64,000 nt of DNA from Dehalococcoidia bacterium (GCA_963668185.1 OY764162.1:2660478-2724477); one strand, 5' to 3'; positions 49,309 through 53,261 are shown, counted from the first letter of the stretch. Numbers and translations: made by a program. Notes: generated from the sequence alone by a model not told the origin.

Positions 49309-50265
49309 ATGACCAGTGTAGTAGAACTCGCAAACATCGAGAATGTCGATATTCGCCGTGCTTGGCCCAACGAAGCTTCGAACTTCACCCCATGGCTCGC
49401 CGAGAACCTCGACAGGCTGGGCAACGCCTTGGGCTTGGAATTGGAACTGCTGGGCCGGGAGGCAGAGGTAGGACCATTCAAGCTGGACATCCTCGCCCAG
49501 GAGACTGGCACTAATCGCAAAGTGATAGTCGAGAACCAACTTGAGATTACTGATCATAGTCATCTCGGACAGTTGCTCACATACGCCTCAGGGTACGATG
49601 CTAAGGTTATCGTATGGGTAGCTGGTCAGTTTAAGGACGAGTACCGCCAAGCCCTGGACTGGCTGAATCAGCTATCGCCAGAGGACATCGAGTTCTTCGG
49701 AGTCGTTGTCGAACTTTGGCAAATTGGAGATTCTGCGCCTGCTCCGCACTTCAAAGTCATCTCATCACCCAACGACTGGCAAAAGGACTGGCAAAAGGGC
49801 AGGATGAGCCCAACTTCTGCCCCGTCGGAACGCAACGAACGCTATCGCAGATTCTTCCAAGACCTTATCGATACCCTAAGGCAAGAACACGGATTCACGA
49901 ATGCGCGAAAGGGGCAGCCACAGAATTGGTATACCTTTTCGTCTGGCGTCAGCGGATTCAATTACTCAACTTTCTTTGCATCTGACAATATGGCTAAGGT
50001 AGGAATCTACATCGACTGTGGCCAGAAGGAGCAGAATGAGGAGTACTTCGAGCAATTGAGGGAGCAGCAGGATTCGTTGGGCACGACCTTCGACGAACCG
50101 CTGCAATGGCTCAGACTGGACAATCGACGAGCATGCAGGATCGTGGTTCAAACTCCCGGTAGCATTGACGACGACGATGAAGCTCTAAATCACATCCACG
50201 ACTGGATGATCCAGAACGTCATGAGGTTCAAAACTGTCTTCGGTCCCAAGCTAAGCGAACTCTAG
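49309..50265 (+). CDS. DUF4268-domain protein with PD-(D/E)xK-like N-terminal domain
   Basis: FTPWLAEN, LDILA...VIVENQL..TDHSHLGQLLTYA, C-terminal PQNW, GIYID, L.W.RLD; lower GC. Confidence 0.8.
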   Translation: MTSVVELANIENVDIRRAWPNEASNFTPWLAENLDRLGNALGLELELLGREAEVGPFKLDILAQETGTNRKVIVENQLEITDHSHLGQLLTYASGYDAKVIVWVAGQFKDEYRQALDWLNQLSPEDIEFFGVVVELWQIGDSAPAPHFKVISSPNDWQKDWQKGRMSPTSAPSERNERYRRFFQDLIDTLRQEHGFTNARKGQPQNWYTFSSGVSGFNYSTFFASDNMAKVGIYIDCGQKEQNEEYFEQLREQQDSLGTTFDEPLQWLRLDNRRACRIVVQTPGSIDDDDEALNHIHDWMIQNVMRFKTVFGPKLSEL

Positions 50266-50281
50266 TCACAGCCCACCACGT

Positions 50282-50465
50282 GCAGGGGGCGCTTCGCGAA
50301 GCCCCCGCCCTCTCCAGAACCCCGTCATTCCGGCATTCACGCGCCAGCGTGAACCGGGGCCAGCCGGAATCCAGCAGGGCGGGCGGGGCCACCGCCCTTC
50401 CTCCTGTCATTCCGATCGAGCGAAGCAGCCCTCTGTCGTTCCGAGTCCCCCGAGGAACCTACAGC
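50282..50465. repeat. Composite repeat cluster with branched CGTC hairpin
   Basis: GCAG/GTAG-type hairpin, branched hairpin 50323-50374, CTGTCATTCCGATCGAG and GAGTCCCCCGAGG pieces. Confidence 0.8.
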
Positions 50466-50560
50466 CTCACGCCCTCCACAAACGCCCGCCCCCATCAACC
50501 AACCGCCCGTCCGCTCCCCACTCGCCACTATTCACTATCCACCATCCACTCCCCCTCCCC

Positions 50561-50589
50561 TTGACACACTGGTACGCGCCCGCTATCCT
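50561..50589 (+). promoter_or_regulatory. Sigma70-type promoter, probably leaderless transcript
   Basis: TTGACA, 17-bp spacer, TATCCT; ATG 7 nt after the -10 at 50597. Confidence 0.7.
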
Positions 50590-50596
50590 AGAACCC

Positions 50597-51850
50597 ATGG
50601 ATACCGGAGCGCACACCATATCACCAATACAACGCATCGTCCGAGAAGAAACCGACGACGGCAGACTCATCGTCCGTTTCCTAGTCGCCGCCATGCAGGA
50701 CCAGATCCGCGGCGCCAAGCCCTACCACAGGCTAGACGCCGCGCGCCAACTCATCAAACTCGGCTTCGAAGAAGCCAAAGAGTTCGCCTCCATCAAACCC
50801 CTTCCCCAGTCTGGCGGAGCCTGCCCCGAGTCCCTCGAGGGGGAAGGACGGGATGGGGCTCCCACAGACACCCTCGACACCACCGGCCTAAACCCCGACC
50901 TCGCACGCTTCATACGAGCCGAGACCGACGGAGGACGTCAAGCCATACGATTCCTCATAGACGTCATGCTAGGCTTCATGCCCGGCTTCGGCCCCCACCA
51001 CCGCATAGACGCCGCCAAAGAACTGCTGCGCCGAGGCTTCGACGACGCACCCGGCCCCCTAGACCACGACACCTACGCCGACGCAGAACTAAACCCCCTT
51101 CCCCAGTCTGCTGGAGCCTCCCTCAAACCCCTTCCCCAGTCCGCTGGAGCCTCCCTCAAACCCCTTCCCCAGTCTGCTGGGGAAGGCCGGGATGGGGTTC
51201 CCGACATCCTAGCCGGCTACGAACCCCCGTACTCCAACACATACGGCCACAGCGGAGACACCGGCTTCGACAATCGAGCCGTCTCCAAAGCGACAGACGC
51301 CCTGCTGGACGCCGTCGGCAGGCGCCCGACGCCCCCGGACCCCAGAGTCGTTTACCCCTCCAAACGCGGCAGCATCATCATACACAACGGAGAGGAGCAC
51401 TACTTCAGCGAACACGCCCGGCCGGCCGTCGAAAGGTCCATAGCGGCCGGCGAAATCATAGACGCGGTCAAGCGCATCCGCGAATCATGCCGCGGCCCCA
51501 TCCGCATCGCGTGCCGCCACGGCACAGCATCCTGCGACTGCGAATCCGACCCCTGGGCCGAACACCCCAACGACCCGCACGCCCCCGGCGCCGAACCCCC
51601 CGACGGCTCACCCGACCCGTCTGACCCCTTCCCCAGTCTGCTGGGGAAGGCCGGGATGGGGTCCTCCGACAACCCCTCCGTCATTCCCGCGAAGGCGGGA
51701 ATCCATCCGCCCGAACCCGCCGAAGTCGAACCCGACCCGTCTGACCCCTTCCCCAGTCTGCTGGGGAAGGCCGGGATGGGGTCGGCCGGCGCGTCTCACA
51801 CCGAACCCGCCGATGACCCACCCGCCACCCCGGCAGAAAACCCGCCCTGA
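50597..51850 (+). CDS. Hypothetical protein with duplicated helical domain and in-frame repeat insertions
   Basis: Two copies of RxETDxGRxxxRFL...HRxDAAxxLxxxGF; repeat-derived peptides KPLPQSAG, PFPSLLGKAGMG, ACPESLEG, VIPAKAGIH. Confidence 0.65.
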   Translation: MDTGAHTISPIQRIVREETDDGRLIVRFLVAAMQDQIRGAKPYHRLDAARQLIKLGFEEAKEFASIKPLPQSGGACPESLEGEGRDGAPTDTLDTTGLNPDLARFIRAETDGGRQAIRFLIDVMLGFMPGFGPHHRIDAAKELLRRGFDDAPGPLDHDTYADAELNPLPQSAGASLKPLPQSAGASLKPLPQSAGEGRDGVPDILAGYEPPYSNTYGHSGDTGFDNRAVSKATDALLDAVGRRPTPPDPRVVYPSKRGSIIIHNGEEHYFSEHARPAVERSIAAGEIIDAVKRIRESCRGPIRIACRHGTASCDCESDPWAEHPNDPHAPGAEPPDGSPDPSDPFPSLLGKAGMGSSDNPSVIPAKAGIHPPEPAEVEPDPSDPFPSLLGKAGMGSAGASHTEPADDPPATPAENPP

Positions 51851-51861
51851 TGCCCTCAGGT

Positions 51862-51940
51862 GTAGAGGCGCTTCGCGCCGCGCCATCTGTCATTCCCGCA
51901 TTCCTGCGACAGCAGGAACCCGGGGCTGGCGGGAATCCAG
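51862..51940. repeat. GTAG hairpin plus branched CGTC hairpin
   Basis: Homologous to 50282-50374 with compensatory stem changes. Confidence 0.8.
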
Positions 51941-52044: not shown

Positions 52045-52422
52045 TCAGTTCGTGATGTACGTGTGCGTGATGACTTCCCAGACGTGGCCGTCTGCGCACT
52101 CGAAGTAGAAGCCGCGCCCGTTGTGCTCGTAGTTGATCTTGCCGTCCGTTCGAGAGCGCGGTCCGCTCCCGTAAACGACTCCCTCGTCCTTGATGCGCTG
52201 CAGGACCTCGTCGAACTCCTCGTCAGAGGCCAGGAAGCAGTAGTGGTTGGACTGCGGGTTGTCCGAGTTGTCGAAGTCCAGCGTCAGCATGTCGTTGACC
52301 TTGACCGGCGCGAAGTGCCCCCACGGCCCTTCGTACGTGAGCCCGAACAGCTTGGCGATGAACTTAGCGGACTTCTCCTTGTCGTAGGCCGGAACGATCG
52401 TGTGGTCTAGCTGCAATGCCAT
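52045..52422 (-). CDS. VOC/glyoxalase family protein
   Basis: LDHTIV...DKEKSAKF, HYCF, GRGFYF...GHVWEVIT. Confidence 0.88.
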   Translation of the reverse strand: MALQLDHTIVPAYDKEKSAKFIAKLFGLTYEGPWGHFAPVKVNDMLTLDFDNSDNPQSNHYCFLASDEEFDEVLQRIKDEGVVYGSGPRSRTDGKINYEHNGRGFYFECADGHVWEVITHTYITN

Positions 52423-52488
52423 GCGGCGCCTCCTGGGTGTACCGTTTCGTTAGTGGTAAGCTTGCTGAAACCGTTCGTGAGGAGCAAA

Positions 52489-52626
52489 ATGCGCAAATTG
52501 GTCCCCACTTTGCTGATTCTCCCGCCGCTCATTGGCATTTTTGCGGTTACGATCTGGTTCTCAATGAAGAACTTGGAATGGGCATTCAGGTTGGTCACGG
52601 GCATTATTTTCAGCATGTGGGAATAG
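52489..52626 (+). CDS. 45-aa hydrophobic small protein (not in the ORF track)
   Basis: MRKLVPTLLILPPLIGIFAVTIWFSMKNLEWAFRLVTGIIFSMWE; GAGGAG RBS 4 nt upstream. Confidence 0.45.
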   Translation: MRKLVPTLLILPPLIGIFAVTIWFSMKNLEWAFRLVTGIIFSMWE

Positions 52627-52628
52627 CT

Positions 52629-53261
52629 CTAGAACCCTTGAATATCCACTCCGATGGACACCATGTACATGGCGACCATGATAGCGACAATAAGGCCTGC
52701 TACAAGCCACGAGTACGCGATGATAAAGGGGACCAAGTAGCCGTAGTTCAGTGCGTCTGGGATAGTTGTATCGTCAATTGACGAATTCCGGAAATGCACT
52801 TCGTCGTACCTGTCCGATCGGTACATTCGATAAAGCCATCTGGCTGATATGAACATCGTGACTCCGCAAGCCAAAGTTAAGGCTCCGAGCAACACAGTTG
52901 CGAAGATTGCAGAGCCAATGCTTGCATCAGGAGCGACGTATCCGGTCTCAGTGCCAAGTGTGTACTCCCAAATCCACATGCTCTCCAAAGCAAATCCCGC
53001 AGCTGCTCCGATGCAGATTGCGTAGGCGAAGAAGTAGATGACCACCATGGCAGCGGAAGGGAGGCAGCGCCCGAAGATTCGAGCAACCACGTAAGGCCAA
53101 GGGAAGATGAACGCGCCAAAAGCCATGCCAGCCACAGCGAACTGCAAGACTTCTCGTTTCCTGACGAACGCAAATGTCGTGCAGAGTAGGCAAGAGACTA
53201 TTGCTGTCACTGCCCCTGCGGTGGCCAGCAGAGCTAGGGCAAATATGGTCATTATGCCCAT
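52629..53261 (-). CDS. Hypothetical polytopic membrane protein (about 5-6 TM)
   Basis: Multiple hydrophobic segments; lower GC. Confidence 0.65.
   Translation of the reverse strand: MGIMTIFALALLATAGAVTAIVSCLLCTTFAFVRKREVLQFAVAGMAFGAFIFPWPYVVARIFGRCLPSAAMVVIYFFAYAICIGAAAGFALESMWIWEYTLGTETGYVAPDASIGSAIFATVLLGALTLACGVTMFISARWLYRMYRSDRYDEVHFRNSSIDDTTIPDALNYGYLVPFIIAYSWLVAGLIVAIMVAMYMVSIGVDIQGF

What the first reader, a model, noticed from the sequence alone, without database searches (positions are those of the whole stretch)
50597..51850. Promoter-bearing gene that has absorbed at least eight repeat copies in frame, in two reading frames
The CCCTTCCCCAGTCTGCTGGGGAAGG repeat is read as PLPQSAGEGRDG (about 50790 and a 33-bp tandem at 51092-51199) and as PFPSLLGKAGMG (54-bp identical copies at 51610 and 51730). 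The gene also holds the 24-bp module (ACPESLEG) and a CGTC hairpin (VIPAKAGIH). The frame stays open for 417 codons behind TTGACA-17-TATCCT. Inserts fall outside the two copies of a helical domain ending HRxDAAxxLxxxGF. Established parallel: Rickettsia palindromic elements in coding sequences. Inference: repeat-driven linker evolution; the protein might itself relate to the repeats.
Basis: partly seen in the sequence, partly recalled or inferred. Interest (0 to 1): 0.65.

Follow-up and report, generated by a model that had tools for sequence, protein, structure and literature searches.

The report
Multicopy gene with repeat-built protein linkers
This is a real gene, one of 21 near-identical copies in an uncultured Dehalococcoidia genome, whose floppy linkers and tail are built from the genome's own small hairpin repeats read in frame; this is a dense example of a phenomenon already known from Rickettsia and other bacteria.

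Summary
ORF 50597-51850 (417 codons) sits behind TTGACA-17-TATCCT. It holds eight repeat units: six R1 units read in two frames, one nested 24-26-bp module and one CGTC hairpin. These units encode about 25% of the protein.

The gene is real. It is one of 21 dispersed, intact paralogs, plus 5 copies of a sister subfamily. The family is found only in Dehalococcoidia. Its two helical domains are under purifying selection (dN/dS 0.06-0.25), and the small C-domain less clearly so (0.63). All repeat-coded stretches are predicted disordered.

The paralogs differ mainly in which repeats their linkers hold. Three keep a repeat-free linker 1. All 60 R1-to-R1 spacings inside the family are multiples of 3, against 21 of 47 elsewhere. 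Coding copies are a stop-free R1 subtype: 2 of 76 carry a stop triplet, against 128 of 212 elsewhere.

The paralogs recombine and evolve in concert. Congeners show empty sites.

The idea that the protein serves the repeats is not supported. R1 is abundant in congeners that lack the subfamily.

Protein function is unknown. DNA binding is plausible, because a rare relative carries an Mrr nuclease domain behind the same N-terminal module.

This is a new variant of a known kind. Expression could not be checked.

The parts
50323..50374 (+). CGTC-tagged branched hairpin repeat upstream of the gene. It belongs to the mosaic of small repeats that precedes most paralogs.
   Evidence: Sequence. Direct-repeat families D5 and D7 pair it with 51887-51940. 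The upstream alignment of 21 paralogs shows a mosaic of such units.
50525..50550 (+). Array of the heptad CCACTAT, 3.7 copies, directly upstream of the -35 box. It is a possible operator or UP-like element.
   Evidence: TRF. The motif CCACTAWNCACTAT has 26 hits in the genome, and 24 of them lie at family promoters.
50561..50589 (+). Sigma-70-type promoter TTGACA-17-TATCCT. The -10 box ends 7 nt before the ATG and there is no Shine-Dalgarno sequence, so the mRNA is probably leaderless.
   Evidence: Promoter scan. The site is conserved in all 21 paralogs. The cassette TTGACA-N17-TAnnnT-AGAACSYATG occurs 26 times in the genome: the 21 subfamily-A and 5 subfamily-B genes and nowhere else.
50597..51850 (+). 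Coding sequence, 417 aa. It is a member of the 21-copy subfamily A.
50624..50758 (+). Helical domain 1, a three-helix bundle (aa 10-54) ending in HRLDAARQLIKLGF.
   Evidence: AF2 pLDDT is about 90. dN/dS among paralogs is 0.25. The domain is conserved across hundreds of Dehalococcoidia proteins.
50795..50863 (+). Repeat content of linker 1: one R1 unit read in frame A (PLPQS..GEGRDG), split in its loop by the nested 24-26-bp module at about 50815-50840 (ACPESLEG).
   Evidence: Paralogs show three states of this linker: empty, R1 only, and R1 plus the module.
50894..51037 (+). Helical domain 2 (aa 100-147), ending in HRIDAAKELLRRGF.
   Evidence: AF2 pLDDT is about 90. dN/dS is 0.06 among paralogs and 0.05 against the positional ortholog.
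51092..51202 (+). Repeat content of linker 2: a 33-bp tandem made of two truncated R1 units and one full unit, read in frame A.
   Evidence: TRF gives period 33, 2.6 copies and 96% identity. The 33-bp unit has 30 copies in the genome, 29 of them inside family genes.
51203..51556 (+). C-domain specific to subfamily A: a helix, a beta-hairpin (SIIIH-NG-EEHYF) and a long helix, followed by a Cys/His-rich stretch.
   Evidence: AF2 pLDDT is 55-77. No fold match was found. dN/dS is 0.63 among paralogs and 0.36 against the ortholog.
51614..51664 (+). First R1 unit of the tail, read in frame B (DPSDPFPSLLGKAGMGS). It forms a two-tier hairpin.
   Evidence: The RNA fold is -31.4 kcal/mol with z = -3.85.
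51674..51709 (+). CGTC-tagged REP hairpin (R2) in the tail, read as PSVIPAKAGIHP.
   Evidence: R2 has 120 copies in the genome; 13 lie in family genes and all 13 are co-oriented with the gene.
51734..51784 (+). Second R1 unit of the tail, frame B. The 54 bases around it are identical to those of the first tail unit.
51827..51850 (+). Conserved C-terminal end ..ATPAENPP followed by TGA. Thirteen paralogs share it after 11 different tail lengths.
51887..51940 (+). Branched hairpin repeat downstream of the gene, a direct repeat of the unit at 50323-50374.

Best explanation
The ORF is a functional, probably leaderless, gene. It belongs to a multicopy family found only in Dehalococcoidia. The protein has two N-terminal three-helix domains, a small C-domain, two disordered linkers and a disordered tail.

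Small REP-like palindromes of the host genome have entered those disordered parts. They are R1, the CGTC hairpin R2, and the nested 24-bp modules. Only arrangements that keep the frame and carry no stop codon survive. That is why the coding copies are a stop-free R1 subtype, and why all spacings are multiples of three.

Once inside, units grow by tandem duplication, as in the 33-bp array. Other small modules then nest inside them. Recombination and gene conversion between the 21 paralogs copy and shuffle them.

Shown:
- The gene is real and its two helical domains are under purifying selection.
- Repeat content varies between paralogs but stays in frame.
- A repeat-free state of linker 1 exists.
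- The coding copies are a stop-free subtype.
- The paralogs are mosaic and evolve in concert.
- Congeners have empty sites.

Inferred:
- The repeats entered by insertion, and were not born in the gene.
- Gene conversion is what spreads them.
- The repeat peptides are neutral spacers.
- The N-terminal module binds DNA.
For: Real gene:
- There are 21 intact paralogs of 348-510 aa.
- dN/dS is 0.25 for domain 1 and 0.06 for domain 2, and 0.63 for the C-domain.
- The profile search finds 620 relatives, counted as cluster representatives at 50% identity. All named genome hits are Dehalococcoidia or Chloroflexota MAGs.

Disorder: every repeat-coded stretch has pLDDT below 50, while the helical domains are at about 90.

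Variable content: linker 1 has 13 lengths and linker 2 has 14, all multiples of three. All 21 tails end at one of two conserved stop contexts.

Empty state: three paralogs have an 84-nt repeat-free linker 1, homologous to the linker of the congener's genes.

Selection on frame:
- All 60 R1-to-R1 spacings inside the family are multiples of three, against 21 of 47 outside.
- Stop triplets occur in the R1 3' tail in 2 of 76 copies inside, against 128 of 212 outside.

Amplification inside the family:
- 76 of 288 R1 cores lie in 0.93% of the genome, and all 76 are co-oriented with the gene.
- 29 of 30 copies of the 33-bp unit lie in family genes.

Recombination: 188 of 276 pairs of informative sites fail the four-gamete test.

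Concerted evolution:
- Positional orthologs in G303 (OZ220745.1) have dS of 0.58-0.84, like the flanking genes at 0.45-0.82.
- Paralog dS within the genome is only 0.10-0.20.
- The tree splits by genome.

The same happens in other lineages with other repeats. Metagenome homologs P0041-P0043 carry different REP-like peptides in the same linkers.
Against:
- The filled linker 1 is not a clean insertion. Forty-five nt replace 27 nt of the empty state, so the entry mechanism is not resolved.
- The 76-of-76 co-orientation is not explained by stop avoidance. By my own reading of the sequence, the reverse complement of the family's R1 subtype has no stop in any of its three frames.
- No mobilising enzyme could be tied to R1. 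The two RAYT-like genes are not flanked by it.
- The C-domain has dN/dS of 0.63 among paralogs, so part of the protein may be under relaxed constraint.
- Frame B avoids stops with any R1 subtype, so the tail copies give weaker evidence of selection than the linker copies.
Confidence: 0.78

Rival explanations
1. The protein is the partner of the repeats, as a binder, nuclease or mobiliser, in the way that RAYT serves REPs or Ssn serves Neisseria hairpin repeats. On this view the repeats sit in and around the gene because of that partnership.
For: - R1 is enriched 28-fold in family genes.
- Every copy is embedded in mosaic repeat arrays.
- The N-terminal module stands where a DNA-binding domain would stand in one Mrr-nuclease fusion, P0191.
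- The predicted C-domain has a beta-hairpin followed by a helix, with conserved H, N, E and H residues.
Against: - R1 has 98 and 64 copies in congeners G301 and G302, which have no subfamily-A gene. It has only 21 copies in G303, which has 22 such genes.
- There is no hit to any nuclease or transposase family in Pfam, NCBIfam, PHROGs or PADLOC.
- There is no fold match.
- Subfamily B has the same N-terminal module and promoter but no repeats.
Confidence: 0.07
2. The repeats were born in the gene. On this view R1 began as a linker-coding segment of this family, and the intergenic copies are dispersed fragments of it.
For: With the looser 18-nt core, 31% of R1-type units lie in family genes. Twenty-nine of 30 copies of the 33-bp unit are family-only.
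Against: - Repeat-free linker 1 exists in three paralogs and in the congener's orthologs.
- R1 is common in congeners that lack the subfamily.
- The intergenic consensus is a different subtype that carries a stop.
- Relatives in other lineages carry the REP families of their own genomes in the same linkers.
Confidence: 0.05
3. The repeat stretches are selected for a function of their own. They might act as mRNA hairpins that pause ribosomes between domains or stabilise the message. Alternatively they might provide programmed variation in linker length, like a contingency locus.
For: - The in-frame hairpins are very stable: -31.4 kcal/mol with z = -3.85.
- They sit exactly between domains.
- All 76 are in one orientation.
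- Almost every paralog has a different linker.
Against: - Three paralogs and the whole G303 set do without R1 in linker 1.
- Repeat load follows the genome's R1 abundance: 288 R1 copies and a mean protein of 408 aa here, against 21 copies and about 315 aa in G303.
- Truncated 33-bp units cannot form the R1 hairpin.
Confidence: 0.08
4. The frame is open by chance in GC-rich DNA, and the repeats are really intergenic. The ORF is an artefact or a decaying gene.
For: The region has 66% GC, and by my reading of its sequence the R1 subtype found in the gene has no stop in any of the six frames.
Against: - P(open) is about 2.5e-4.
- All 21 paralogs are intact despite dozens of indels.
- The helical domains on both sides of the linkers are under purifying selection, and the C-domain beyond linker 2 is kept in frame in all 21 paralogs.
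- Positional orthologs are conserved.
Confidence: 0.01

Closest known systems
Rickettsia palindromic elements (RPE) inserted in frame in protein genes (Ogata et al. 2000, Science; own knowledge; also mentioned in PMC3733652)
   Same: Genome-wide palindromic repeats lie inside real genes and are read in frame. They sit in regions that tolerate extra residues, and homologs without the insert exist.
   Different: RPEs are about 100-150 bp and usually single. Here the units are 24-47 bp. They are nested and tandem, read in two frames, and fill 25% of the protein. They are concentrated in one 21-copy family, where they are copied between paralogs. There is no sequence relation to RPEs.
Intragenic GTAG/CGTC-tagged REPs (Di Nocera, De Gregorio & Rocco 2013, BMC Genomics 14:522, PMC3733652)
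   Same: These are 20-40-bp REPs found inside genes. The authors argue they are neutral because they lie in flexible linkers. Clusters encode up to 43-82 aa. The R2 unit here has the CGTC tag followed by a hairpin.
   Different: R1, the main unit here, has no GTAG or CGTC tag in its genome-wide consensus. The load is higher, at 106 aa in five blocks. The paralog series records gain, nesting and tandem growth directly.
Neisseria intergenic mosaic elements and Correia-type repeat arrays around variable genes (own knowledge)
   Same: Each gene copy is embedded in mosaics of several small repeat families. Those mosaics can serve as substrates for recombination.
   Different: Here the repeats are also inside the reading frame. 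No DNA-uptake or pilin-type variation system is involved.
Concertedly evolving paralog families, for example the Helicobacter pylori bab/hom outer-membrane genes (own knowledge)
   Same: Paralogs within a genome are more alike than positional orthologs between genomes, and their site patterns are mosaic.
   Different: The product is a cytoplasmic protein of unknown function with its own leaderless promoter cassette. There are 21 copies and no signal peptide.

Membership tests
In-frame palindromic-repeat insertions (RPE-like phenomenon) | The same palindromic unit is dispersed through the genome, including between genes. | tested here: met
   There are 288 R1 cores with up to 2 mismatches, against 0 for the control pattern. 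Of these, 212 lie outside the family. Five of the 8 window copies lie in gaps between the long ORFs listed, by comparison of coordinates.
In-frame palindromic-repeat insertions (RPE-like phenomenon) | The unit lies inside a real gene and keeps the frame, and homologs without it exist. | tested here: met
   The domains on both sides are conserved and the two helical domains are under purifying selection. Three paralogs and the G303 orthologs lack R1 in linker 1. All 60 spacings inside the family are multiples of 3.
In-frame palindromic-repeat insertions (RPE-like phenomenon) | The insert-bearing protein is expressed. | not testable with these tools
Rickettsia RPE families proper | Sequence and size of an RPE (about 100-150 bp, Rickettsia lineage). 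| tested here: not met
   The units are 24-47 bp. R1 was found only in this genus, in 4 of 4 congeners and in none of 3 more distant relatives.
CGTC-tagged REPs (Di Nocera 2013) | A short palindrome with the tetranucleotide CGTC at one end, in high copy number. | tested here: met
   This holds for R2 only. CGTC lies at 51679-51682 and is followed by the stem ATTCCCGC/GCGGGAAT. R2 has 120 copies.
CGTC/GTAG-tagged REPs (Di Nocera 2013) | The same tag on the main repeat, R1. | tested here: not met
   The consensus of the 212 R1 copies outside the family is cctctgryCCCTTCCCCAG..GGATGGGG, with no conserved CGTC or GTAG.
REP/RAYT pair (REPtron) | A Y1/HUH transposase gene flanked by the repeat it mobilises. 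| tested here: not met
   Two RAYT-like ORFs score 23.3 and 25.3 bits against PF01797. No R1, R2, R3, R4 or R6 unit lies within 600 bp of either.
Insertion sequence or transposon | A transposase domain, terminal inverted repeats and a target-site duplication. | tested here: not met
   No Pfam, NCBIfam or PHROG domain was found. The conserved unit is only the promoter plus the gene, with two alternative 3' ends and no inverted repeats. The empty-site comparison shows no duplication.
Phage small terminase / HTH DNA-binding proteins | A significant profile or fold match. | tested here: inconclusive
   Only weak hits were found, and only for distant homologs: phrog_641 at E 0.0095 and phrog_15261 at E 3.7e-4. 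The window protein has none. Foldseek found nothing below E 0.1.
Mrr / type IV restriction endonuclease | An Mrr_cat PD-(D/E)xK catalytic domain. | tested here: not met
   The domain is absent from the window protein. It matched only 2 of the 139 relatives scanned; P0191, the one identified, scores E 7.8e-33.

The most novel reading that the evidence does not exclude
The unit made of the heptad array, the consensus leaderless promoter and the tandem three-helix protein may be an undescribed kind of self-propagating gene cassette in Dehalococcoidia. On this reading:
- the N-terminal module binds DNA, perhaps its own CCACTAT heptads;
- the C-terminal part is an exchangeable effector (an Mrr nuclease in a few relatives, and the small His/Asn-bearing beta-hairpin-plus-helix domain here);
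- copies spread to new intergenic sites by recombination through the REP arrays that flank them.

The in-frame repeats would then be scars of that way of life.
Probability: 0.12. Interest if true: 0.7.

Novelty: new variant of a known kind. Interest (0 to 1): 0.45.

Why it matters
In-frame REP or RPE insertions are usually seen one at a time, so it is hard to tell how they arise and what selection does to them. Here one genome holds 21 copies of the same gene at different stages: empty, filled, nested and tandemly expanded. A congener carries positional orthologs, and two congeners have empty sites. This makes a natural series in which insertion, frame and stop filtering, slippage and gene conversion can each be measured.

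The work also flags an undescribed, lineage-restricted family of about 20 copies per genome. Its promoter is unusually close to consensus and gives a leaderless message. Nobody knows what the family does. It makes up about 1% of the genome of an uncultured, probably sponge-associated Dehalococcoidia lineage.

Tried and rejected
- Fold assignment. The full-length AF2 model and a C-domain-only model were searched against PDB, and the full-length model against BFVD. No hit fell below E 0.1. My idea that the C-domain is a His-Me/HNH finger therefore has no support.
- Family assignment. Pfam, PHROGs, NCBIfam and PADLOC, and a PDB sequence profile, gave nothing for the window protein.
- Conserved neighbour gene or operon. 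None was found among the 21 loci within about 6-7.5 kb on either side.
- tRNA-linked integration. Only 2 of 21 copies lie within 1 kb of a tRNA gene, and random placement reaches this in 25% of trials.
- Link to a RAYT. Two RAYT-like genes exist but are not flanked by the repeats.
- Empty-site test for the window's own copy. It was not possible, because the two flanks lie 160 kb apart in G301 and G302 and 88 kb apart in G303. Two other loci were used instead.
- R1 inside other genes. Fifty-eight copies outside the family lie in stop-free frames of at least 200 codons. Many are near frame ends and all six frames occur, so no claim is made.
- I first read the family as evolving about four times faster than its flanks. 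Per-domain values corrected this: the domains are 68-90% identical between orthologs, and the low overall identity comes from the linkers.

Full report
**1.

The ORF 50597-51850 (+, 417 aa) and the site TTGACA-17-TATCCT at 50561-50589 are as described. The -10 box ends 7 nt before the ATG and there is no Shine-Dalgarno sequence. The mRNA is therefore most likely leaderless; this is an inference.

The 25-nt core CCCTTCCCCAGTCTGCTGGGGAAGG (R1) has 8 matches in the window, against 0 in shuffles. It has 288 matches in the 2.78-Mb single-contig genome.

Inside the ORF the repeat stretches are:
- 50795-50863: R1 in frame A, with a nested 24-26-bp module.
- 51092-51202: a 33-bp tandem ending in a full R1, frame A.
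- 51614-51664 and 51734-51784: R1 in frame B, within 54 identical bases.
- 51674-51709: a CGTC-tagged hairpin.

This gives eight units in two frames, and 106 of 417 residues (25%) are repeat-coded. The frame is not open by chance: P is about 2.5e-4, 4 of 20,000 shuffles stay open, and the other five frames carry 3-16 stops.

**2. It is a real gene of a multicopy family**

The protein has no Pfam, NCBIfam, PHROG or PADLOC match. It does have 21 dispersed full-length paralogs in its own genome, all intact at 348-510 aa. A sister subfamily B has 5 further copies that share only the N-terminal module.

A relative in the same genus, G303 (OZ220745.1), has 22 subfamily-A and 5 subfamily-B copies. 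Two other congeners have a single B-type copy each. None of 300 evenly sampled genomes of the class has the family. A profile search of 1.84 billion cluster representatives finds 620 relatives. All named genome hits are Dehalococcoidia or Chloroflexota MAGs, several of them from sponge bins.

Among the 21 paralogs, dN/dS is 0.25 for domain 1, 0.06 for domain 2 and 0.63 for the C-domain.

AlphaFold2, run with 120 sequences, gives two three-helix domains (aa 10-54 and 100-147) at pLDDT of about 90. It gives a moderately confident C-domain, made of a helix, a beta-hairpin and a long helix. Every repeat-coded stretch has pLDDT below 50.

**3. The paralogs are a natural series of repeat gain**

The three conserved blocks are almost identical across paralogs. 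Linker 1, linker 2 and the tail differ in which units they hold:
- R1 as PLPQSAGEGRDGV;
- 33-bp half units as PLPQSAGASLK/S;
- the nested modules ACPESLEG and EEPVLSPSK;
- NPFVVSLSNH;
- R1 as DPFPSLLGKAGMGS;
- SVIPAKAGIH.

Linker 1 has 13 lengths and linker 2 has 14. All 21 tails, with 19 lengths, end at one of two conserved stop contexts.

Three paralogs keep an 84-nt repeat-free linker 1, which is homologous to the linker of the G303 genes. Other paralogs show R1 alone, R1 plus a nested module, or two to three R1 units. The filled state replaces 27 nt with 45 nt, so it is not a simple insertion.

**4. Selection keeps the frame**

Inside family genes, all 60 spacings between neighbouring R1 units are multiples of three, across 14 different values. 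Outside, only 21 of 47 are. Unit length alone therefore does not explain the open frame.

The consensus of R1 copies outside the family carries TAG or TGA in its 3' tail (GG(T/C)TAGGATGGGG or GATTGAGATGGGG). That would be a stop in frame A. Such triplets occur in 128 of 212 copies outside the family, but in only 2 of 76 inside. The inside copies use GGCCGGG, GGCAGGG or GGACGGG instead.

Frames A (55 copies) and B (21 copies) are used. The third frame, which is rich in Cys and Trp, is never used.

**5. Why this family holds so many repeats**

Family genes are 0.93% of the genome but hold 26% of R1 cores. They hold 31% when a looser 18-nt core is used, and 29 of the 30 copies of the 33-bp unit. 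Every unit of every repeat type is co-oriented with the gene: 76/76, 13/13, 9/9 and 3/3.

The paralogs recombine. Of 276 pairs of informative sites, 188 fail the four-gamete test.

At least three loci are positional orthologs between this genome and G303, with flanking proteins 83-97% identical. For the pair examined, the ortholog dS is 0.58-0.84 and the flanks are at 0.45-0.82. Within-genome paralog dS is only 0.10-0.20, and the tree splits cleanly by genome.

So the copies are homogenised within each genome. An insertion that enters one copy can then be spread to the others; this step is inferred.

Repeat load follows the genome's R1 count. This genome has 288 R1 copies and a mean protein length of 408 aa. 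G303 has 21 copies and a mean of about 315 aa. Metagenome homologs from another lineage carry different REP-like peptides in the same linkers.

**6. Gain and loss of whole copies**

At the locus of the paralog at genome position 426180, two convergent genes are separated by:
- 47 bp (a hairpin) in G302;
- 85 bp containing R1- and R3-like pieces in G301;
- 2.3 kb here;
- 3.2 kb in G303.

In the last two genomes the interval holds the family gene plus a repeat mosaic.

At the locus of the paralog at 523196, the gene lies about 480 bp downstream of a tRNA-Cys gene. G301 and G302 have about 585 bp of unrelated DNA there.

No inverted repeats, target duplication, transposase or constant neighbour gene were found.

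The window's own copy sits at a synteny breakpoint.

**7. The repeats do not depend on this protein**

R1 has 98 and 64 copies in the two congeners without subfamily A. It has only 21 copies in the congener with 22 such genes, and it is absent outside the genus. Two RAYT-like genes exist but are not flanked by R1, R2, R3, R4 or R6.

**8. What the protein does is open**

No fold match was found. There are three hints.
- Distant homologs give weak PHROG hits, including a small-terminase family.
- Two of the 139 relatives scanned match Mrr_cat. In the one identified, P0191, the same N-terminal module sits in front of an Mrr-type restriction nuclease domain (E 7.8e-33), where Mrr has its DNA-binding domain.
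- A CCACTAT heptad array and the promoter cassette occur in the genome only at the 26 family genes.

I take DNA binding by the tandem three-helix module as the most likely activity, at about 40%.

**9. Comparison with what is known**

In-frame palindromic repeats in genes are known from Rickettsia RPEs (own knowledge) and from GTAG/CGTC REPs. For the latter, clusters encode up to 43-82 aa and the authors already suggested neutral placement in flexible linkers (PMC3733652).

R2 meets the CGTC-REP definition. R1 does not.

The new elements are the density, the nesting, the use of two frames, the stop-free coding subtype, and the 21-paralog series with concerted evolution, all in an undescribed family.

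Earlier notes of this scan describe the same family in other genomes. I used them as leads only.

Noticed in passing
window 49309-50265 and 52045-53261: The gene is flanked by lower-GC DNA (54-55%, against about 65%). On one side is a DUF4268 protein. On the other are a glyoxalase-like protein and a 210-aa ORF with no Pfam match. The two flanks of this copy lie 160 kb apart in congeners G301 and G302 and 88 kb apart in G303, so the copy sits at a synteny breakpoint.
   Followed up: partly
window 50525-50550: A CCACTAT heptad array lies directly upstream of the -35 box. The motif and the leaderless promoter cassette occur in the genome almost only at the 26 family genes. This genome has only 34 sites fitting a generic TTGACA/-10/ATG leaderless layout, and 26 of them are this family.
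   Followed up: partly
G000:C1 1446645, 1524819, 1659202, 1873537, 2183394: Five subfamily-B genes of about 375 aa (one is truncated to 175 aa) share the promoter cassette and the tandem N-terminal module. They have a different acidic C-terminal half and no repeat-derived peptides.
   Followed up: partly
protein P0191 (metagenome relative): The family's N-terminal module is fused to a C-terminal Mrr_cat/type IV restriction nuclease domain (E 7.8e-33). Two of the 139 relatives scanned match Mrr_cat; only P0191 was identified. Its contig was not inspected.
   Followed up: partly
G000:C1:1030279-1030989 (-) and 2121588-2122136 (+): Two RAYT-like HUH/Y1 transposase ORFs carry the motifs HVHGIV / HLHGII and NYYEHIIR / NYYERIVR. 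They are not flanked by any of the repeat families seen in the finding.
   Followed up: partly
G301:C1:1127824-1139807: This congener has long, regular R1 arrays with periods of about 107, 131 and 178 nt. Their nature (coding or not) was not examined.
   Followed up: no
window 50323-50374 and 51887-51940: Two related branched hairpin repeats bracket the gene as direct repeats. Similar units occur upstream of many paralogs but not at fixed positions.
   Followed up: partly
window 3055, 11049, 15002, 28194, 41918: By comparing coordinates, the other five R1 cores of the window all lie in gaps between the long ORFs listed, at gene ends. This is the usual REP habitat.
   Followed up: no
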